Origin: a virus | Strand: one strand, 5' to 3' | IMG/VR virus record: IMGVR_UViG_3300045988_110337 | Length of the DNA stretch: 50,501 nucleotides | Shown here: piece after piece, positions 2,155-49,369 of the stretch | How positions within the stretch are numbered: position 1 is the first letter of the stretch | Layout: the number at the start of each line of letters is the position of its first letter | Position numbers and translations under genes: made by a program | The notes under the pieces: model-generated | What the model was told of the DNA's origin: nothing | What the model saw: only the letters and a program-made list of their open reading frames with translations | The model's database searches: none

Positions 2155-2396
2155 TGTCTTGTTCCTTTCTTTTCGGCTGTCGGAGCTTGTGACCGTCTGC
2201 CGGGCTGCATTAACGGGATTTCTCCCGCCACTCTGCTATATTTCTACGTGCTCGGCGATGTAAATAAAAGTTTGACCTTTGTGCACTTCCAAGATGATAA
2301 AATGTGTCCAATCGATTTTAATTTAGCTTTCCGCGACCCCTTGCGGGGTTTCGGCTGGTTGCCGACCAGCCATCATCAGGCGGAGTTTAGACTAGT

Positions 2397-3204: not shown

Positions 3205-3233
3205 TTGACAAACGTATAGTTTAGTGCTATAAT
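3205..3233 (+). promoter_or_regulatory. Consensus promoter of the packaging/structural operon (TTGACA-17-TGcTATAAT)
   Basis: TTGACA 3205-3210, 17-nt spacer, TATAAT 3228-3233 preceded by TGC. Confidence 0.7.
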
Positions 3234-3240
3234 CAATCAC

Positions 3241-3282
3241 GGGGGAGGGGGGGAGAGGAAGAAAAGGAAAGAAGAAGGAAAA
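3241..3282 (+). other. 42-nt uninterrupted polypurine tract at the predicted 5' end of the late transcript
   Basis: GGGGGAGGGGGGGGAGAGGAAGAAAAGGAAAGAAGAAGGAAAA read directly. Confidence 0.9.
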
Positions 3283-3406
3283 CAGCCTTAATATATCACT
3301 ATTACCAATACAGCTATATTATAGTAATAAATGGGATTATGTTAATATACAATATTATTGTTATAATATAGTTATATAATAAATTATACGGAAGGGAGAA
3401 AGCAAA

Positions 3407-4036
3407 ATGAAAGTTGAGCATATAGCAGACTTTGAGGCGCCGGAAGAACTTACAAATGTAGAACAACCGAAGAAGCGGAAGAAACAAGGGCGCAAGACAA
3501 GCAATCACAACAAAGCGATTGCAGCCCGAGAACGTTTGGAGTGTGAATTAAACGGATGTTCGGACCCGAGAACGCCGCTCACCGAAGTAAACCTCGATAC
3601 GCTTACAGCTCTGCAAGAGCTTATGGCGTTGCCGGCTGTTGACTTGGACAGCGCGGACGAGGTCGAGCAGCGTTGCAACGACTATATATCATGGTGCAGC
3701 CGGTATCACGCTTTTCCCTCGCTAGCAAGTCTCGCCGTTGCTCTCGGAGTCGACCGTGTTACACTTATAGAGTGGGGGACTAAGTCGCGTATAGGACAGC
3801 GTCATTCTACAATTATAAAAAGAATGAAGACGCTCATAGCCGCAAACACCGTCCAAAAGGGCGCGGACGGCTCTCTCAATCCCGTATACGCGATGTTTTT
3901 ACTTAACAACAGTTCACAAGGCTTTGCAAATAATACGCGCTTAGAGGTCGCACAAACGCCCACAGAGCAAATAGACGCGCCAAAACTTGATGATGTTATA
4001 GAGATATACGACAGCAAGGACATGAGCGACGTTTGA
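3407..4036 (+). CDS. terS: Terminase small subunit
   Basis: Position upstream of terL. ...FPSLASLAVALGVDRVTLIEW...NPVYAMFLLNN... matches the TerS HTH and C-terminal pattern as I recall it. Confidence 0.7.
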   Translation: MKVEHIADFEAPEELTNVEQPKKRKKQGRKTSNHNKAIAARERLECELNGCSDPRTPLTEVNLDTLTALQELMALPAVDLDSADEVEQRCNDYISWCSRYHAFPSLASLAVALGVDRVTLIEWGTKSRIGQRHSTIIKRMKTLIAANTVQKGADGSLNPVYAMFLLNNSSQGFANNTRLEVAQTPTEQIDAPKLDDVIEIYDSKDMSDV

Positions 4037-6429: not shown

Positions 6430-6606
6430 ATGGAAGAAGAGAAACACGCGCACCGTCTCAAGTACGTCAAAGAAGACGCGCTTATTATAATCAACGAGAT
6501 TTTAGAACGTGGTAATGACGTTAAAATAAAGAAATCTCGCGAAGAGGTCACTATACTTGAAATAACCGCTTCGAGAAAAGCTAAATACACTATAAAAACG
6601 CTGTAA
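6430..6606 (+). CDS. Hypothetical small protein
   Basis: Short ORF between terL and portal, GAGG RBS. Confidence 0.35.
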   Translation: MEEEKHAHRLKYVKEDALIIINEILERGNDVKIKKSREEVTILEITASRKAKYTIKTL

Positions 6607-6644
6607 CAATCGGGTTGCAGTAAGAGCCGATAGGGGCTATTCGT

Positions 6645-29190: not shown

Positions 29191-29194
29191 TGTT

Positions 29195-29302
29195 AAACAG
29201 GACATTTGGTAACGATAAACAGGACATTTGGTAACGGATAGCAGGACATTTGGTAACTGTAAAACAGGACACTTAGTAACGACAAACAGGACATTTGGTA
29301 AC
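29195..29302. repeat. Five 22-bp iterons (core CAGGACATTTGGTAAC)
   Basis: Cores at 29198, 29220, 29242, 29265 (2 mismatches) and 29287; spacing 22/22/23/22. Confidence 0.85.
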
Positions 29303-29343
29303 TGTAAAACCGAGAAAACACATGGGAAAATTGTTCTTTTGCA

Positions 29344-29389
29344 GTTTTCAACAATGTTTTCAACATAGTTTTGCACAGAGTTTTCAACA
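29344..29389. promoter_or_regulatory. Four GTTTTCAACA boxes at exact 12-bp phasing just upstream of rep (operator candidate)
   Basis: 29344, 29356, 29368 (variant GTTTTGCACA), 29380; one further copy at 29081. Confidence 0.5.
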
Positions 29390-29403
29390 TGAAGGGAGTA
29401 ACC

Positions 29404-30096
29404 ATGAAAAATAGCGATAAAAATATTAATAATTTAGTTGTCAAAAAGAACGAACTAATTCAAAAGTCAAGATACGGAATGACAACACAGGAGCAAAAAG
29501 TCATATTGTATACGATAAGCAAGGTAAAACCCGATGATAAAGAACTTTATGAGTATGATTTCAATCTGCAAGATATGTGTGAAGCACTTGGAATTACTCA
29601 AAACGGCAAGAATTACAAGAATCTCCGTGAAACGCTTCAATCCATACGCGACAAGTCATTCTGGATAGTGGACGGAAATGTAAGAAAACTATGCGCATGG
29701 ATTTCGGGTGCGGAAATATACGAAAATGAATCGCGGGTTAGGATTCAGCTTGACAAGCGGCTGGCACCTTATTTGCTTGAACTCAAAGAATCGTATACGG
29801 CATATCAGCTTCAAACCGTGTTAAACATGGAATCGAAACACACTATACGTTTGTACGAGATACTTAAAAGCTATGACAATATAGGCGAGTACACCGTTTC
29901 TGTTGAAAATTTGAAAACGCTTATGCAAATAGGCGGTTACTCGGATTTTATTGATTTTCGCAAGCGCGTAATCGACACTGCCGTTGACGAAATTAACGCC
30001 GTTAGTGATTTGCGTGTAGCCTATGAGCCGAAACGGACGGGAAGGAGTATAACTCACATTAAATTCTCAATCACAAAAGCAAGGAGTAATCCATGA
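29404..30096 (+). CDS. Rep_3-family (RepB-like) theta-replication initiator
   Basis: LVVKKNELIQKSRYGMTTQEQKVILYTISKV... and ...SKHTIRLYEILKSY... are typical of iteron-plasmid initiators; iterons lie immediately upstream. Confidence 0.8.
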   Translation: MKNSDKNINNLVVKKNELIQKSRYGMTTQEQKVILYTISKVKPDDKELYEYDFNLQDMCEALGITQNGKNYKNLRETLQSIRDKSFWIVDGNVRKLCAWISGAEIYENESRVRIQLDKRLAPYLLELKESYTAYQLQTVLNMESKHTIRLYEILKSYDNIGEYTVSVENLKTLMQIGGYSDFIDFRKRVIDTAVDEINAVSDLRVAYEPKRTGRSITHIKFSITKARSNP

Positions 30097-30710
30097 AATA
30101 CCTAACAATAGCCGAATTCGCCGACAGAGCCGGAGTGACAAGTCAATCGGTATATCAAAGAATTAAGCGGAACGGTCTTGAAGAATATATAGTGACAAGC
30201 GAAGACGGAGTAAAAAGAATCTCCGAGGATGCATTGAAACTATATAGCAACTCAAAAAAACACGAAGCAGTTGCGGAAAACGTGTGTGACGCACCACAGG
30301 ATTGTGAGAGCGAAGAAAACAAAGGACACGAGTGTTTGAACGCAGAAACAATAAAGAGCCTACAGGAGACTGTAGAAGCTCTCAGAAACGTAATTGACAG
30401 ACAGGCAGACGAACTGAAGCAGAAGACGGAAATGCTTGACGAACGTGATAAGCAGATTTCAGACTACGCCAGCAAGTTTGCCGAACTCGCTCACAACGCG
30501 TTACAAACCGCTGTGCAGGCGCAAACGCTCCATGCGGTCAGTGAATCCGACAAGTTTGTTAATGCGCCTCAGAACGTCTCCCAGAACGCCACAGTTGGTA
30601 AAAAAACTGTTGCAGACGAGAATGACGTTGAATCAACAAACGAATCCGATGTTGAACAAGATAACAAGCGTAAGTTGAATTGGTTTGCAAAGCTGTTTGG
30701 TAAACATTAA
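30093..30710 (+). CDS. MerR/excisionase-type HTH protein with a long coiled-coil tail
   Basis: MKYLTIAEFADRAGVTSQSVYQRIKRNGL...; translationally coupled to rep. Confidence 0.5.
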   Translation: MKYLTIAEFADRAGVTSQSVYQRIKRNGLEEYIVTSEDGVKRISEDALKLYSNSKKHEAVAENVCDAPQDCESEENKGHECLNAETIKSLQETVEALRNVIDRQADELKQKTEMLDERDKQISDYASKFAELAHNALQTAVQAQTLHAVSESDKFVNAPQNVSQNATVGKKTVADENDVESTNESDVEQDNKRKLNWFAKLFGKH

Positions 30711-30749
30711 ACGTGACAAATAATATGTTACTAAACGTTGACAGATATG

Positions 30750-30778
30750 TTGACAAACGCGTTTAAACGTGCTATAAT
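30750..30778 (+). promoter_or_regulatory. Consensus promoter TTGACA-17-TGcTATAAT with no ORF downstream
   Basis: TTGACA 30750-30755, 17-nt spacer, TATAAT 30773-30778 preceded by TGC. Confidence 0.7.
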
Positions 30779-30784
30779 ATTGTT

Positions 30785-31175
30785 GTGGAACAATGAACTC
30801 TGGTTGTTCTTCGTATTGAAACTCCTTTCTTTTAAAATATCCGAGCAACGTGGATGATTCCGCTGTGCAACCGCTCGGACATCGCGCCTATACGTTCAAC
30901 GGCAGAAGATACCATAACGTGTACAACGGCGGTTCAACTCCGCAAGGCGCGAATTGACATGACTACGTTCCTTTCGGTCTTGTTTTTCGTTTTTGGCGAC
31001 GGTTCGTAAGGACTGTCGCGCACGGGAACGGCGAATCGGTTGTATGGCGGTCAAAAGGCTGCCTTTGAGGGTTCAAAACCCTCCGTTTCCTTTCGCGACT
31101 TCTGTCATGTTCCTCCTTTGTTTATGAATTTGCTGTGTAAAAGAGCACTCTTCTGGATGGGGTGCTCTTTTACGT
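30785..31175 (+). ncRNA. Candidate structured ncRNA of about 390 nt, class unknown
   Basis: Bounded by the consensus promoter and the 31139-31171 terminator. No track ORF (60 aa or longer) lies within 30849-31546 on either strand. Contains T-arm-like hairpins and long-range pairings. Confidence 0.45.
31139..31171. terminator. Bidirectional terminator hairpin
   Basis: AAAAGAGCAC-13 nt-GTGCTCTTTT. Confidence 0.65.
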
Positions 31176-31354
31176 TGTTAAATGTTTGTCAACATTGAAT
31201 GTGCGCCGATAAGTGCATAAATTTGTCGAATGTAAAACTAATATATTTTTGTATCTGATTTTAATACGGAATATTAAACTCGGCTATTGCCTTCTCTCGA
31301 AAAGCATGTTACACTTGAATTAGAAAATATTTCCAACAAAGAAGGGACAGACAG

Positions 31355-31471
31355 ATGAAGAATTGCAGATTTGAGTTAGCGAATATCGTAAGCAAACTAA
31401 ACGACAAAGGCATAATCCTTCTTTTGCGCTTCGCGAAACTTCTCGAGAAAAATAAAAATTTTCTCAAATAA
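31355..31471 (+). CDS. Possible 38-aa ORF
   Basis: ATG after GAAGGGA; MKNCRFELANIVSKLNDKGIILLLRFAKLLEKNKNFLK. Confidence 0.25.
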   Translation: MKNCRFELANIVSKLNDKGIILLLRFAKLLEKNKNFLK

Positions 31472-31494: not shown

Positions 31495-31523
31495 TTTACA
31501 AACAAGCGTTCGTGTGATATAAT
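31495..31523 (+). promoter_or_regulatory. Promoter TTTACA-17-TGaTATAAT
   Basis: TTTACA 31495-31500; TATAAT 31518-31523. Confidence 0.55.
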
Positions 31524-31553: not shown

Positions 31554-31718
31554 ATGAAGGAGCAAATTATAACCGAGATAGCCGAGATACTACAAAGCTA
31601 CTCCGAGGAACGGCTAAGGCTGATTGTACGACTTGTAACAGTTCTCGCCACAGCGACCGACAAAACAGCGGGACTTTCGGAGAAAGCCGTACTAAGCATT
31701 GCAAGACACGCAAAATAG
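31554..31718 (+). CDS. Possible 54-aa ORF
   Basis: ATG after GAAGGGAAG; MKEQIITEIAEILQSYSEERLRLIVRLVTVLATATDK...; followed by a terminator. Confidence 0.4.
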   Translation: MKEQIITEIAEILQSYSEERLRLIVRLVTVLATATDKTAGLSEKAVLSIARHAK

Positions 31719-43476: not shown

Positions 43477-44016
43477 TCAGTTATCCTTTCTTGCGTTAAA
43501 CGGTTTATAATCTTCGTACTGTATGCCTTCTTGCTCCATGAAGTTTCTGAGCTTCACGAGCTGTTCCTTAGTGCCTGTGGCAATGTAAGTGAGCCTATAG
43601 AGCTTAGCGTCCTCTGACGGCGTTGTGGGCGTTTCTGGTGCGTTTTCTTTTAGGCTGTCGAGGGCTTCCTTCATGTGCTTGTCGGCGGCTTCAAGGCGTT
43701 TTTTGATGCTTTTTGCGTCGTTCTCAAAGTCGATATATCCGGCGAGGACTGCGGTTTTTATTCCGGCTACGTAGTCGCTGAAATTCGCCGTCATTTTGCG
43801 GAGCTTTGTTCTTGCCTTGCGGTAGTCCTTTGCGGTGTCTTCCGTTATCGGCACGTTTTCTACTCTGTCGCAGAACTCGTTTATCGGAGCTATGAGGTCT
43901 GCAAGGTGGTTTTCAAGGACAAGCTCGCTCTTTATCTCGACGAGGTTCACGCCTTCGGGAATGATATCCTCGGTGTAGATGTTGGCGAGAGCTGTTATCT
44001 CGTTTGTCTCGGTCAT
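43477..44016 (-). CDS. Hypothetical protein adjacent to recT
   Basis: ORF in the operon. Confidence 0.45.
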   Translation of the reverse strand: MTETNEITALANIYTEDIIPEGVNLVEIKSELVLENHLADLIAPINEFCDRVENVPITEDTAKDYRKARTKLRKMTANFSDYVAGIKTAVLAGYIDFENDAKSIKKRLEAADKHMKEALDSLKENAPETPTTPSEDAKLYRLTYIATGTKEQLVKLRNFMEQEGIQYEDYKPFNARKDN

Positions 44017-44207
44017 TTGGTTGTCTCCTTTTTTCTTCTCTTAAAGCAGGCATATGCGCCTGTGCATTTCTTTGCGGTGCAGGTCAGGCAGACGGCTGTA
44101 TCTGCCGGTTCTATTTTGTCATGTGATGCGGTTTTGCGTCCCTTGCGTGGCTTCACTTCCGGCGGCTGGGTGTGCAGATTGGACACATCATAAAGGTATC
44201 TCGGCAT
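44013..44207 (-). CDS. Small Cys-containing protein
   Basis: ORF in the operon. Confidence 0.35.
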   Translation of the reverse strand: MPRYLYDVSNLHTQPPEVKPRKGRKTASHDKIEPADTAVCLTCTAKKCTGAYACFKRRKKETTK

Positions 44208-44481
44208 TCTTCATCCGCTCCTTTCGGTCTTCTTCGCCCTGTTCGGTGTCTACGGGGTCGCAGTTCAGTGCTTCCAGCGTCTTGCCGAGGGAGTAGAAGA
44301 AGAAGTCTGCTGTGCAGTCGGGACAGATATACTCGACATTGTCTCCGTCGTATGTGATGAGGACGGGCTTTCCGATGTGGTCTGATGTGATATCGCCGTG
44401 ACAGCGGGTGCATATGTGGTGATTTTCGGCGATTGCCTTATCAACGTATGTCCACTCGCTGAATTTGTAGGGGCTGCTCAT
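44188..44481 (-). CDS. Small zinc-ribbon-like protein
   Basis: CTRCH...CPDC. Confidence 0.4.
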   Translation of the reverse strand: MSSPYKFSEWTYVDKAIAENHHICTRCHGDITSDHIGKPVLITYDGDNVEYICPDCTADFFFYSLGKTLEALNCDPVDTEQGEEDRKERMKNAEIPL

Positions 44482-44830: not shown

Positions 44831-45217
44831 ATGATAGCTGAGAATATAAGAACTTTGAGAAAAGAACTCGGCTTATCACAAACGGAATTCGCCAAAAGAA
44901 TTTACGTCTCGCGCGATGTCATAAGCAATATCGAGTTGAAAAGAGTTGAACCAACTGAGCTAATAGTAAATGTCATATGCGTTGAATTCGGCGTAAATGA
45001 ATCTTGGCTGAAAACTGGCGAAGGCAATATGTTCCAATTGAAAGTCGCTGAAGACAAGATATTTGATGCATTCGGCAAACTGGCTCATGAAGCGGATTCT
45101 TCGTTTGTTAAACAGTTTGTGGCGGCACTTGCAGAACTTACGCCTGAAGAGTGGAAGACAATAGAAAACTTTGCTTGGAAAGTAGTCGAACGTCAGAAAG
45201 AAGCAGACGATAAGTAA
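44831..45217 (+). CDS. XRE/CI-type repressor
   Basis: IRTLRKELGLSQTEFAKRIYVSRDVISNIELKRVEP HTH; divergent from the early operon. Confidence 0.8.
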   Translation: MIAENIRTLRKELGLSQTEFAKRIYVSRDVISNIELKRVEPTELIVNVICVEFGVNESWLKTGEGNMFQLKVAEDKIFDAFGKLAHEADSSFVKQFVAALAELTPEEWKTIENFAWKVVERQKEADDK

Positions 45218-49273: not shown

Positions 49274-49310
49274 GATTGTACTCCTTTATTTTCCTTATTT
49301 TTGATACCTC

Positions 49311-49324
49311 CCTCCGAAGAGGGA
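49311..49324 (-). other. Intercistronic hairpin with UUCG tetraloop
   Basis: Minus strand CCCTC-TTCG-GAGGG. Confidence 0.6.
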
Positions 49325-49369
49325 ACGCACCGAGCCTGAATCCTATTTAGAGCCGCTCGGTCGGCTTGA

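What the first reader, a model, noticed from the sequence alone, without database searches (positions are those of the whole stretch)
30750..31175. Candidate ncRNA of about 390 nt with a perfect promoter, a strong terminator, tRNA-like modules and an anti-SD-like tract
A TTGACA-17-TGcTATAAT promoter (30750-30778) faces about 390 nt with no ORF, ending at hairpin 31139-31171. Inside it:
- A 7-bp acceptor-like helix (30883-30889 / 30945-30951) abuts a T-arm-like GGCGG-TTCAACT-CCGC(A).
- A second such pair is present: GGGAACG 31024-31030 / CGTTTCC 31084-31090, with GAGGG-TTCAAAA-CCCTC.
- There is long-range pairing between ACATGAC (30956) and GTCATGT (31104).
- Pyrimidine tracts are present, including TTCCTCCTTTG (31110-31120), which resembles the 16S 3' end.

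Neither tRNA-like unit has D or anticodon arms, so they are not tRNAs. The C/U tracts could pair with purine-rich leaders such as 3241-3282. That link is pure speculation.
Basis: partly seen in the sequence, partly recalled or inferred. Interest (0 to 1): 0.7.

Follow-up and report, generated by a model that had tools for sequence, protein, structure and literature searches.

The report
Phage RNA gene with tRNA mimics
A gut phage-plasmid carries a strongly promoted, roughly 390-nt non-coding RNA gene that holds two conserved tRNA-shaped modules with no anticodon loop, plus several pyrimidine motifs complementary to ribosome-binding sites; this RNA family is not in Rfam and its function has not been tested.

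Summary
A 12/12 sigma-70 promoter with an extended -10 (30750-30778) and a 10-bp terminator hairpin (31139-31171) bracket about 387 nt with no conserved ORF.

I found 22 distinct homologues (360-401 nt), always just downstream of a Rep3 initiator gene and a 205-aa HTH-like gene in related ~50-kb gut phage contigs. Conservation is patchy in the way expected of a structured RNA.

Both "tRNA-like units" are full cloverleaves, not just acceptor and T arms. Each has a 7-bp acceptor, a D arm with a GG loop, and a canonical T arm. In the anticodon position each has a hairpin capped by a 4-5 nt loop of variable sequence. Compensatory changes support both cloverleaves. ARAGORN and Rfam do not call them tRNAs (13-20 bits against a cut-off of 29).

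A second locus type pairs module 1 with a genuine tRNA-Gln, so the transcript very probably goes through tRNA processing.

The motifs UCCUUUCG and GUUCCUCCUUU are kept in all rep-adjacent lineages examined. The first is 16-bp complementary to the RBS region of an early ORF at 44207(-).

Best reading: a tRNA-punctuated precursor that yields stable anticodon-less tRNA mimics and an anti-SD sRNA. Function is inferred, not shown.

The parts
30747..30758 (+). ATGTTGACAAAC, left arm of a 12-nt perfect inverted repeat that overlaps the -35. Upstream lie TTAAACGTG / ATATGTT..AAACG repeats that look like operators.
   Evidence: I2, D1, D4. Similar GTTTAAA repeats precede the promoter in L135/L136.
30750..30778 (+). 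Sigma-70 promoter TTGACA-17-TG(c)TATAAT. Inferred transcription start near G30785.
   Evidence: 12/12, TG extension. Conserved in all lineages.
30787..30810 (+). 5' hairpin P1 (8 bp).
   Evidence: 99% of cells paired, with five one-sided G-U/A-U changes.
30816..30835 (+). A-U-rich hairpin UUGAAA/UUUUAA that presents CUCCUUUC (30822-30829) in its loop. This is the first anti-SD-like motif.
   Evidence: pair G-U to G-C in L014; segment 89% invariant. CCUC-type motifs occur in the leaders of L077, L135 and L136.
30840..30879 (+). Hairpin 2: conserved base UCCGAGC/GCUCGGA with a variable apex, including a 6-nt indel.
   Evidence: 100% paired base helix.
30883..30952 (+). Module 1, an anticodon-less tRNA-like cloverleaf. 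Acceptor CGCGCCU/AGGCGCG. D arm CGUU-CAACGGCA-GA(A/C)G. Short stem plus a 5-nt loop (or 8-nt loop) in the anticodon position. T arm GGCGG-UUCAACU-CCGCA. Position 73 is A.
   Evidence: tRNA model matched 1-71 at 13.3 bits.: 5 pairs and 11 cells with changes on both sides, 0/500 shuffles.: D-stem C-G to U-A, and a 5-bp stem with a 5-nt loop in L117.: model R2 scores 72-95 bits in relatives against at most 33.5 bits for real tRNAs.
30967..30977 (+). GUUCCUUUCGG, the invariant core of the inter-module spacer and the second anti-SD-like motif. In the window it extends to a 16-bp complement (one G-U) of 44215-44236(-).
   Evidence: invariant UCCUUUCG inside a 36%-invariant spacer; -31.0 kcal/mol, 0/30 shuffles reach it; motif kept in L077, L135, L136, L117.
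30994..31018 (+). Hairpin 3 (7 bp), with different sequence in each lineage.
   Evidence: U-G / U-A / C-G at the closing pair. Replaced by unrelated hairpins in L135 and L136.
31024..31091 (+). Module 2, an anticodon-less tRNA-like cloverleaf. Acceptor GGGAACG/CGUUUCC with G3.U70. 4-bp D-like stem with loop AUCGG. 7-bp stem plus tetraloop AAAA in the anticodon position. T arm GAGGG-UUCAAAA-CCCUC. Position 73 is U, followed by UU.
   Evidence: tRNA-Sec 16 bits; tRNA 19.7 bits in L135; 97.9% paired, 4 pairs with changes on both sides, 1/500 shuffles; cloverleaf is the MFE fold in most variants; tRNA-Ser(GCU)-like acceptor and T arm; model R1 92.9 bits, unique in the window.
31087..31095 (+). Second copy of UUCCUUUCG, spanning the 3' end of module 2 and its trailer.
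   Evidence: D5. GUUUCCUUU is invariant in A4.
31094..31109 (+). 3' hairpin CGCGAC-UUCU-GUCAUG.
   Evidence: 98.9% paired; A-U to G-C; GCAGC/GCUGC in L136 and ACGGC/GCUGU in L139.
31110..31120 (+). UUCCUCCUUUG, an anti-SD-like tract predicted to be single-stranded between the 3' hairpin and the terminator.
   Evidence: unpaired in the MFE fold of the trailer. Kept as GUUCCUCCUU in L135 and L136, as UUUCCACCUUUC in L139, and relocated but kept in L102, L138, L141 and L142.
31139..31171 (+). Intrinsic terminator AAAAGAGCAC-N13-GUGCUCUUUU. It is symmetric, so it could terminate in both directions.
   Evidence: I4. Covaries in L139: AAAAAAGCACCU/AGGUGCUUUUUU.
31184..31195 (+). GTTTGTCAACAT, right arm of the 12-nt inverted repeat.
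   Evidence: I2.
44215..44236 (-). Candidate target CGAAGAAGACCGAAAGGAGCGG. It is the SD region of the 64-aa ORF 44013-44207(-), at the end of the 97-aa zinc-finger-like ORF 44188-44481(-).
   Evidence: The link to the RNA is an inference.

Best explanation
30785-31171 (+) is an autonomous, strongly transcribed non-coding RNA gene of a Rep3-type phage-plasmid. Its transcript is a precursor laid out like a small tRNA operon.

It holds two tRNA-derived cloverleaves. Both keep everything that tRNA-processing enzymes read: a 7-bp acceptor stacked on a 5-bp T arm, the T-loop UUCRANN, a GG-bearing D loop, and no encoded CCA. In both, the anticodon loop has been replaced by a short capped hairpin.

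Inferred steps:
- RNase P, RNase Z and the CCA-adding enzyme cut out two stable, non-decoding tRNA mimics of about 70 nt.
- The same cuts release the flanking pieces: a 5' leader, an inter-module spacer, and a 3' trailer of about 84 nt that ends in the terminator.
- These pieces carry pyrimidine motifs (CUCCUUUC, UUCCUUUCG twice, UUCCUCCUUUG) complementary to the phage and host Shine-Dalgarno consensus GAAAGGAGG. They act as antisense sRNAs that occlude ribosome-binding sites.
- The best candidate targets are the CCGAAAGGA-type RBSs of early or accessory genes that start at 44207, 40678 and 45504 on the minus strand.

Shown here: the gene, its strand, its conservation, both cloverleaves, and the motif conservation. 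Inferred: processing, stability and targets.
For: Gene boundaries:
- Perfect promoter and terminator.
- Both are conserved, and the terminator covaries, across lineages whose neighbouring protein is only 52-54% identical.

Strand:
- Six G-U/U-G pairs are invariant across A3. They would be A-C mismatches on the minus strand.
- T-loops read UUCAANN only on the + strand.

Structure:
- z = -4.3.
- 97% of cells are paired against 41-49% in slid controls.
- Covariation for module 1 and module 2.
- The hairpin in the anticodon position changes length and sequence but stays a hairpin: AAAA, AACA, AAUA and UAUA tetraloops in module 2, and 5-nt loops in module 1.

Selection:
- The modules and the CU tract are 81-89% invariant against 36-48% in the spacers.

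tRNA-operon logic:
- In five other contigs module 1 sits behind a similar promoter. About 70 nt further on lies a bona fide tRNA-Gln(UUG), which must be processed out of that transcript.

Anti-SD motifs:
- TCCTTTC is the reverse complement of the SD used by this phage. It occurs 23 times against 8.7 expected, mostly antisense to genes.
- The mid tract pairs 16 bp with the RBS region at 44215-44236(-). No shuffle of 30 reached that energy.
- CCGAAAGGA occurs 5 times against 0.5 expected, and three of those sites are RBSs.
- The 3' tract is unpaired in the trailer fold.

Independence from downstream genes:
- In L136, L139 and L140 the terminator is followed by a convergent gene.
Against: - No expression or processing data exist for this RNA.
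- Complementarity outside the UCCUUUCG(G) core is not conserved. It is 10-14 bp in other variants, while the target site is invariant. No sRNA-target covariation can therefore be shown, and shuffled tracts reach -28.8 kcal/mol.
- Any CU-rich RNA will match SD sequences.
- RNase Z cleavage after module 2 would split the second UUCCUUUCG copy.
- The strict invariance of the module 2 acceptor and T arm goes beyond what processing alone needs. It hints that the tRNA mimics themselves are the functional product.
- The alignments hold only 10-22 distinct, related sequences, so the shuffle statistics are generous.
Confidence: 0.45

Rival explanations
1. The functional products are the anticodon-less tRNA mimics themselves, and the pyrimidine tracts are just processing trailers. 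After CCA addition the mimics would bind tRNA-recognising factors without ever decoding. They could act as decoys for tRNA-targeting toxins or defence enzymes that read the acceptor, CCA end or elbow. They could titrate RNase P, RNase Z, EF-Tu or aminoacyl-tRNA synthetases. Or they could carry an amino acid: module 2 has G3.U70 and a tRNA-Ser-like acceptor, and AlaRS and SerRS both ignore the anticodon.
For: - The module 2 acceptor, G3.U70 and T arm are invariant in all 10 distinct variants across lineages.
- Module 1 is the only part shared by the two locus types, at 88% identity over 93 nt amid unalignable flanks.
- Selection keeps the shape of the arm but not its loop.
- The elbow features G53-C61, U54-A58 and a GG D loop are intact.
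- Bacterial Ala identity has no anticodon determinant (PMC9976931).
- The T arm and acceptor are 86-89% identical to tRNA-Ser(GCU).
Against: - Module 2 has U73 and A4-U69. The bacterial Ala identity set is A73, G2-C71, G3.U70 and G4-C69. S. aureus tRNA-Ser(GCU) has G73.
- The module 1 discriminator varies (A, U or G).
- No tRNA-related enzyme, toxin or antitoxin was found among 30 neighbouring proteins scanned.
- This reading does not explain why UCCUUUCG and CCUCC persist inside otherwise free-drifting spacers.
Confidence: 0.3
2. The modules are decaying phage tRNA genes (pseudo-tRNAs) in a former tRNA operon, with no present function.
For: - Both modules clearly derive from tRNAs but fall below the tRNA thresholds.
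- A relative still has a real tRNA-Gln in the second slot.
Against: - The modules are far more conserved than their spacers.
- Compensatory changes keep every stem.
- The perfect promoter and the terminator are retained in all 22 variants.
- The same non-decoding architecture persists across lineages whose neighbouring protein has diverged to 52% identity.
Confidence: 0.07
3. The region is a cis-acting leader or attenuator. It would control read-through into the downstream small ORFs (38 aa at 31355, 54 aa at 31554) or plasmid replication.
For: - No promoter-like site scoring 9/12 or better lies between 31172 and 31355.
- The RNA always sits next to the rep3 module.
Against: - In L136, L139 and L140 the terminator is followed directly by a convergent HTH gene.
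- In the second locus type the cassette lies elsewhere, near the immunity region.
- I did not notice an antiterminator sequence complementary to the terminator when reading the sequence, but I did not search for one.
- No T-box or riboswitch hit.
Confidence: 0.03
4. The region is protein-coding: a frameshifted gene, or tiny ORFs on the minus strand behind the SD-like GAAAGGA/AAAGGAGG sequences. Alternatively it is an attP remnant of integration into a tRNA or ssrA gene.
For: - The minus strand reads AAAGGAGGAAcATG (11 codons) and GAAAGGAAcgtagtcATG (8 codons).
- The 3' part of module 2 resembles the 3' ends of tRNA-Ser and tmRNA, which are common att sites.
Against: - The ORFs are 8-11 codons long.
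- Indels are not multiples of three.
- Substitutions in the open frame across module 1 are mostly non-synonymous (my reading).
- G-U pairs fix the RNA on the + strand.
- Both halves of each cloverleaf are present, not just a 3' half.
- No integrase was found among 30 proteins scanned, and the element carries Rep3 plus iterons.
Confidence: 0.03

Closest known systems
Phage T4 stable RNAs RNAC and RNAD (species 1 and 2) in the T4 tRNA gene region
   Same: - Phage-encoded, stable, non-decoding small RNAs.
- Linked to tRNA genes and matured with them (from my own knowledge).
- Function still unknown (PMC9697503).
   Different: - No sequence relationship was tested.
- The T4 RNAs belong to a lytic coliphage and sit inside a cluster of eight real tRNAs.
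- Here the cassette has its own perfect promoter and terminator, two anticodon-less cloverleaves and anti-SD motifs, and it lies in a Firmicute-type phage-plasmid.
tRNA (Rfam RF00005), in particular Firmicute tRNA-Ser(GCU) for module 2
   Same: - Cloverleaf with a 7-bp acceptor, a 5-bp T arm, the T-loop UUCRANN, G53-C61 and a GG D loop.
- The module 2 T arm and acceptor are 86-89% identical to tRNA-Ser(GCU).
   Different: - No 7-nt anticodon loop and no U33.
- Bit scores of 13-20 against a cut-off of 29.
- ARAGORN is negative.
- Module 2 has A3-to-G, which creates G3.U70, and it lacks the long variable arm plus anticodon arm pair of a class II tRNA.
tRNA-like domain of tmRNA, and bacterial Y-RNA-like YrlA
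   Same: - tRNA mimics that keep the acceptor, T arm and elbow but replace the anticodon arm with another helix.
- tmRNA also has G1-C, G2-C and G3.U.
- The module 2 3' end is 88% identical over 26 nt to a staphylococcal-type tmRNA 3' end.
   Different: - No mRNA-like ORF and no pseudoknots.
- ARAGORN finds no tmRNA.
- No ACCA is encoded.
- No Ro/TROVE gene was seen, though not every ORF was scanned.
- No Rfam hit.
3' external transcribed spacer sRNAs of tRNA operons (E. coli 3'ETS-leuZ), and RNase P-processed phage antisense RNAs (P1/P7 C4, P4 CI)
   Same: A regulatory RNA released from a precursor by tRNA-processing enzymes. In P1 and P7 it is a phage-plasmid antisense RNA that blocks an RBS. 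Both statements are from my own knowledge.
   Different: - Those are single short RNAs with defined targets.
- No homology: the whole-window gathering scan and the E-value scan of 30600-31400 list no such family.
- Processing and targets here are only inferred.

Membership tests
tRNA (RF00005 / ARAGORN) | Score at or above the Rfam gathering cut-off (29 bits), or a call by ARAGORN | tested here: not met
   Module 1 scores 13.3 bits. Module 2 scores 16 bits against tRNA-Sec and 19.7 bits in L135. ARAGORN finds 0 genes in the window and in L135-L138.
tRNA (RF00005 / ARAGORN) | 7-bp acceptor stacked on a 5-bp T arm, with T-loop U54-U55-C56-R57-A58 and G53-C61 | tested here: met
   Both modules, with covariation in the module 1 T stem. 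The 49-65 pair of module 1 is a mismatch in most variants.
tRNA (RF00005 / ARAGORN) | 5-bp anticodon stem with a 7-nt loop (U33 and an anticodon) | tested here: not met
   Module 1 has a 3-5 bp stem with a 5-nt or 8-nt loop of variable sequence. Module 2 has a 7-10 bp stem with a tetraloop.
tmRNA | tRNA-like domain plus a tag-peptide reading frame and pseudoknots; detected by ARAGORN or Rfam | tested here: not met
   ARAGORN is negative and there is no Rfam tmRNA hit. Only 53 nt lie between the acceptor strands. G3.U70 is present.
Alanine-accepting tRNA or minihelix (bacterial AlaRS identity set) | A73, G2-C71, G3.U70, G4-C69 (PMC9976931) | tested here: inconclusive
   Module 2 has G2-C71 and G3.U70, but also U73 and A4-U69. 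Charging cannot be tested with these tools.
YrlA / bacterial Y RNA | tRNA-like domain joined to a Ro-binding helix, encoded next to an rsr (Ro60/TROVE) gene | tested here: not met
   No Rfam hit. None of the 30 proteins scanned has a TROVE domain. The structural-gene ORFs were not scanned.
P1/P7 C4 and P4 CI antisense RNAs | Sequence and structure match to the curated family; target repeats in the same operon | tested here: not met
   No such family appears in the gathering or E-value scans. The candidate target lies 13 kb away on the other strand.
Type III toxin-antitoxin RNA (ToxI-like) | Tandem direct repeats followed by a terminator and a toxin gene | tested here: not met
   The repeats found are short two-copy pairs of 9-15 nt, not a tandem array. 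The downstream ORFs are 38 and 54 aa with no Pfam hit.
T-box or riboswitch leader | Rfam match and a terminator/antiterminator switch ahead of a regulated gene | tested here: not met
   No hit. In L136, L139 and L140 the downstream gene is convergent.
Trans-acting base-pairing sRNA (functional class) | Conserved single-stranded seed complementary to a conserved mRNA site, ideally with covariation between the two | tested here: inconclusive
   The seed UCCUUUCG(G) and the target CCGAAAGGA are both invariant. The window has a 16-bp match that no shuffle of 30 reached. The flanks do not covary.

The most novel reading that the evidence does not exclude
The phage makes anticodon-less tRNA mimics as its active product. 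After RNase P and RNase Z cleavage and CCA addition, module 2 (G3.U70, tRNA-Ser-type acceptor and T arm) is charged by AlaRS or SerRS. Alternatively it is bound by an enzyme that recognises the tRNA acceptor or elbow. Either way it never enters decoding. It would act as a decoy against host systems that attack tRNA ends or elbows, or as an amino-acid carrier or sink. Module 1 would be a portable companion that travels between loci with either a real tRNA or a mimic.
Probability: 0.2. Interest if true: 0.85.

Novelty: new variant of a known kind. Interest (0 to 1): 0.6.

Why it matters
Phage tRNA genes are usually explained by codon usage or by escape from anticodon nucleases. Here two tRNA-derived genes have been kept under selection for tRNA shape while losing the anticodon loop. 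They are wired to one of the strongest possible promoters in a phage-plasmid of gut Firmicutes.

If the mimics or the linked anti-SD pieces are functional, this is a compact natural example of a tRNA scaffold put to regulatory or counter-defence use. It is also a new RNA family for Rfam.

It gives a concrete system to test:
- 22 sequence variants.
- Two locus architectures.
- Defined predicted processing sites.
- Candidate RBS targets.

The system bears on what non-decoding tRNA-like RNAs do in phages. That question is still open for T4 RNAC and RNAD, which are still described as being of unknown function (PMC9697503).

Tried and rejected
- **Rfam.** Neither the gathering scan nor the E-value scans gave a family for the region, only sub-threshold tRNA-type hits.
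- **blastn.** The locus has no match in the phage or plasmid collections.
- **Exact-pattern scans.** GGGAACGGCGAATCGGT and GTACAACNGCGGTTCAA gave only the same lineage plus chance hits in coding DNA.
- **D-arm/T-arm pattern.** It mostly hit real phage tRNAs, which turned out to be informative.
- **GTDB and metagenome scans.** They returned only the same phage lineage. One MAG is labelled Eubacteriales.
- **Long-range helix ACAUGAC/GUCAUGU.** Not conserved, so I replaced it with a local 3' hairpin.
- **RNAalifold's long AUACGUU/AACGUGU helix in module 1.** Rejected in favour of the cloverleaf after L135, L136 and L117 showed compensatory changes in the D and anticodon-position stems.
- **5'-3' closing helix UUCGUA/UAUGAA.** Lost in L102 and L111.
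- **Extended targets for the 5' and 3' CU tracts.** There is no match with 3 or fewer mismatches over 20 nt. RNAduplex gives only generic SD hits.
- **Polypurine leader 3241-3285.** Not an outlier target.
- **tmRNA-TLD idea.** The 3'-end similarity is explained equally well by tRNA-Ser(GCU).
- **Origin from an rrn spacer (16S end, tRNA-Ile, tRNA-Ala).** I considered this but found no sequence support.
- **Extra module copies in the window.** None.
Full report
**1. What is in the sequence**

- TTGACA-17-TATAAT with a TG extension lies at 30750-30778 and scores 12 of 12.
- The hairpin AAAAGAGCAC-N13-GUGCUCUUUU lies at 31139-31171.
- Between them the longest ORF on either strand is 52 aa.
- The 394-nt stretch folds better than all 100 shuffles, with z = -4.3.
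- ARAGORN finds no tRNA or tmRNA anywhere in the window.
- Rfam places nothing here at gathering thresholds. Permissive scans give only sub-threshold tRNA-type hits: 16 bits to tRNA-Sec for 31024-31090 and 13.3 bits to tRNA for 30884-30951, against cut-offs of 47 and 29.

**2. Context**

The window is a phage.
- It carries 22-nt iterons at 29194-29302, a Rep3 initiator at 29371-30096, and a 205-aa HTH-like protein at 30093-30710.
- The RNA gene follows. After it come two small ORFs.
- A long minus-strand early operon holds SSB, a G39P-like loader and RecT. It ends at a cI-like repressor gene at 44831-45217.
- No integrase was found among 30 proteins scanned. This fits a phage-plasmid.

**3. 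Relatives**

- blastn against GenBank phages and PLSDB found nothing.
- Searches seeded on the neighbouring proteins and on conserved words found the locus in IMG/VR, in one GTDB MAG labelled Eubacteriales, and in metagenome contigs.
- A search of the 5.8-billion-protein collection with the 205-aa protein gave homologues down to 52% identity. Their contigs carry much more divergent copies of the RNA in the same position.
- In all I have 22 distinct full-length genes of 360-401 nt.
- Conservation is mosaic. Module 1 is 89% invariant, module 2 81% and the 5' CU tract 89%. The spacer is 36% invariant and the variable hairpins 45-48%.
- Indels of 1, 2, 4 and 6 nt, and mostly non-synonymous changes in the frame left open across module 1, rule out coding.

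**4. Structure**

On the 15 close variants my model has 97% of cells paired, against 41-49% when partners are slid. Few changes are on both sides, because the set is narrow. Six pairs are invariant G-U or U-G, which fixes the RNA on the + strand.

Adding the divergent lineages gives real covariation.
- **Module 1 (A5).** Five pairs and 11 cells change on both sides. No shuffle of 500 reaches the observed cell count or covariation score, and slid controls give 0-1 such pairs.
- **Module 2 (A6).** 97.9% of cells are paired and four pairs change on both sides (1/500 shuffles for cells).
- **L117.** It adds a C-G to U-A change in the module 1 D stem. It also shows a clean 5-bp stem with a 5-nt loop in the anticodon position.

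Both modules are therefore complete cloverleaves. Each has a 7-bp acceptor, a D arm whose loop holds GG, and a 5-bp T arm (the 49-65 pair is mismatched in most module 1 variants) closed by G53-C61 with UUCAANN. In the anticodon position each has a hairpin whose length and sequence drift while the pairing is kept. Module 2 is capped by AAAA, AACA, AAUA or UAUA. Module 1 is capped by AUAAC, AAAAU or ACAGU. They are tRNA-shaped but cannot decode.

The long-range ACAUGAC/GUCAUGU helix fails in a third of the variants. A local hairpin at 31094-31109 is kept and covaries: GCAGC/GCUGC in L136 and ACGGC/GCUGU in L139.

**5. Origin**

- The module 1 D arm and T arm match a signature found in many genuine phage tRNAs.
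- The module 2 T arm and acceptor are 86-89% identical to Firmicute tRNA-Ser(GCU), GGAAACG...GAGGGTTCGAATCCCTCCGTTTCC. One A3-to-G change creates an invariant G3.U70.
- Its similarity to a tmRNA 3' end is no greater than its similarity to tRNA-Ser.

**6. A second locus type**

In contigs 108218, 152192, 100616, 109091 and 111499, module 1 scores 72-92 bits with my model. Real tRNAs score at most 33.5 bits. There it sits behind a TTGACT-18-TATAAT promoter beside the cI-like gene. About 70 nt downstream lies a bona fide tRNA-Gln(UUG) scoring 59.7 bits in Rfam, where the window has module 2.

A real tRNA must be cut out of that transcript. The cassette is therefore a tRNA-type precursor, and module 1 has every feature the same enzymes use. 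Neither the modules nor the tRNA-Gln encode CCA. Module 2 is always followed by UUU.

**7. Pyrimidine motifs**

- CUCCUUUC sits in a hairpin loop at 30822-30829.
- UUCCUUUCG occurs twice, at 30968 and 31087.
- UUCCUCCUUUG at 31110-31120 is unpaired in the trailer fold.
- UCCUUUCG is kept in every lineage examined, including the tRNA-Gln type. A CCUCC-type tract before the terminator is kept in all rep-adjacent lineages, even where the surrounding sequence is rearranged.
- They are the complement of the SD consensus this phage uses. TCCTTTC occurs 23 times against 8.7 expected, mostly antisense to genes.
- An RNAduplex scan found one outlier. The mid tract pairs 16 bp (one G-U) with AAGACCGAAAGGAGCG at 44215-44236(-), at -31.0 kcal/mol. 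That site is the SD region of a 64-aa ORF at the end of a 97-aa zinc-finger-like ORF. Thirty shuffled tracts reached at best -28.8 kcal/mol.
- CCGAAAGGA occurs five times against 0.5 expected, and three of those sites are RBSs.
- The target is invariant in 20 relatives, but the flanking complementarity is not kept in other RNA variants. The link is suggestive only.

**8. Interpretation**

I commit to a tRNA-punctuated precursor. Host RNase P, RNase Z and the CCA-adding enzyme would release two stable anticodon-less tRNA mimics. They would also release leader, spacer and trailer fragments whose anti-SD seeds block RBSs of phage early or accessory genes, and perhaps host genes.
- Confidence that this is a real, structured, tRNA-derived ncRNA gene is about 0.9.
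- Confidence in the full mechanism is 0.45.
- The main rival, at 0.3, is that the mimics themselves are the effectors, acting as decoys or as chargeable non-decoding tRNAs. The absolute invariance of the module 2 acceptor and T arm, and the portability of module 1, argue for this.
- Pseudogene decay, a cis leader, coding and attP remnants are each unlikely (see rivals).

**9. Novelty**

No Rfam family matches, and I found no description in the literature searches.

The nearest known things, from my own knowledge unless a call is cited, are:
- T4 RNAC and RNAD, still described as of unknown function.
- The tRNA-like domains of tmRNA and YrlA.
- 3'ETS-derived sRNAs.
- The RNase P-processed C4 and CI RNAs of P1, P7 and P4.

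This is a new RNA family and a new variant of the tRNA-mimic and tRNA-linked-sRNA theme. It is not a new category.

Noticed in passing
window 49302-49366 (-), 2180-2237 (-), 6597-6644 (+): Rfam gathering-level hits: Pistol ribozyme (61 bits), type-P5 Twister ribozyme (47 bits) and gut-2 RNA (49 bits). The related phage L077 also has Pistol and Twister-P5.
   Followed up: no
window 3205-3285 (+): A second perfect promoter, TTGACAAACG..GTGCTATAAT, nearly the same as the RNA gene's. It is followed by a pure-purine tract of about 45 nt (GGGGGAGGGGGGGAGAGGAAGAAAAGGAAAGAAGAAGGAAAA) and an AT-rich stretch before the ORF at 3407. Its pairing with the RNA's CU tracts is not an outlier.
   Followed up: partly
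window 29194-29302 and 29343-29390: Iterons: 22-nt unit in 4.9 copies, plus a 12-nt unit in 3.9 copies, directly upstream of the Rep3 gene.
   Followed up: partly
window 30747-30758 / 31184-31195, and 30703-30771: A perfect 12-nt inverted repeat, ATGTTGACAAAC, brackets the whole RNA gene. TTAAACGTG and ATATGTT..AAACG repeats precede the promoter. GTTTAAA repeats occupy the same place in L135 and L136. They could be operators, possibly for the 205-aa HTH-like protein. The right arm looks like a -35 with no -10.
   Followed up: partly
L070 1027-1103 (+) and L074 7797-7723 (-): Another gut phage carries a tRNA-like gene: GCGGTGGTAGTTCAACGGCAGAAC..GCTATC-CTCCC-GATAGC..GGTTCAACCCC..CACCGCTCCA. Its anticodon-position stem is capped by a 5-nt loop, CUCCC. 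ARAGORN and Rfam do not call it. My module 1 model scores it 21 bits. Anticodon-less tRNA mimics may be more widespread.
   Followed up: partly
window 31355-31471 and 31554-31718 (+); promoter 31495-31523: Two small ORFs (38 and 54 aa) with no Pfam hit. The 38-aa ORF's sequence recurs in L135, L141 and L142, and 38-aa and 54-aa genes are called at the same positions in relatives. The C-terminal motif of the 38-aa protein (LNDKGI..L.RFAKLL) recurs in a 95-aa ORF of L077.
   Followed up: no
L136 4019-4474 (-), L139 1920-2366 (-), L140 1480-1935 (-); L077 5295-5735 (+): In other lineages the RNA cassette lies directly next to an XRE/cI-type HTH gene. It is convergent in L136, L139 and L140 and divergent in L077. 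This hints at a link with the immunity switch.
   Followed up: no
L142 2778-2846 versus L077 5140-5208: Module 1 of the rep-adjacent variant L142 (ACCAAAATGCGTAC, AGCGG) is closer to that of the tRNA-Gln-type loci than to other rep-adjacent variants. This suggests recombination of module 1 between the two locus types.
   Followed up: no
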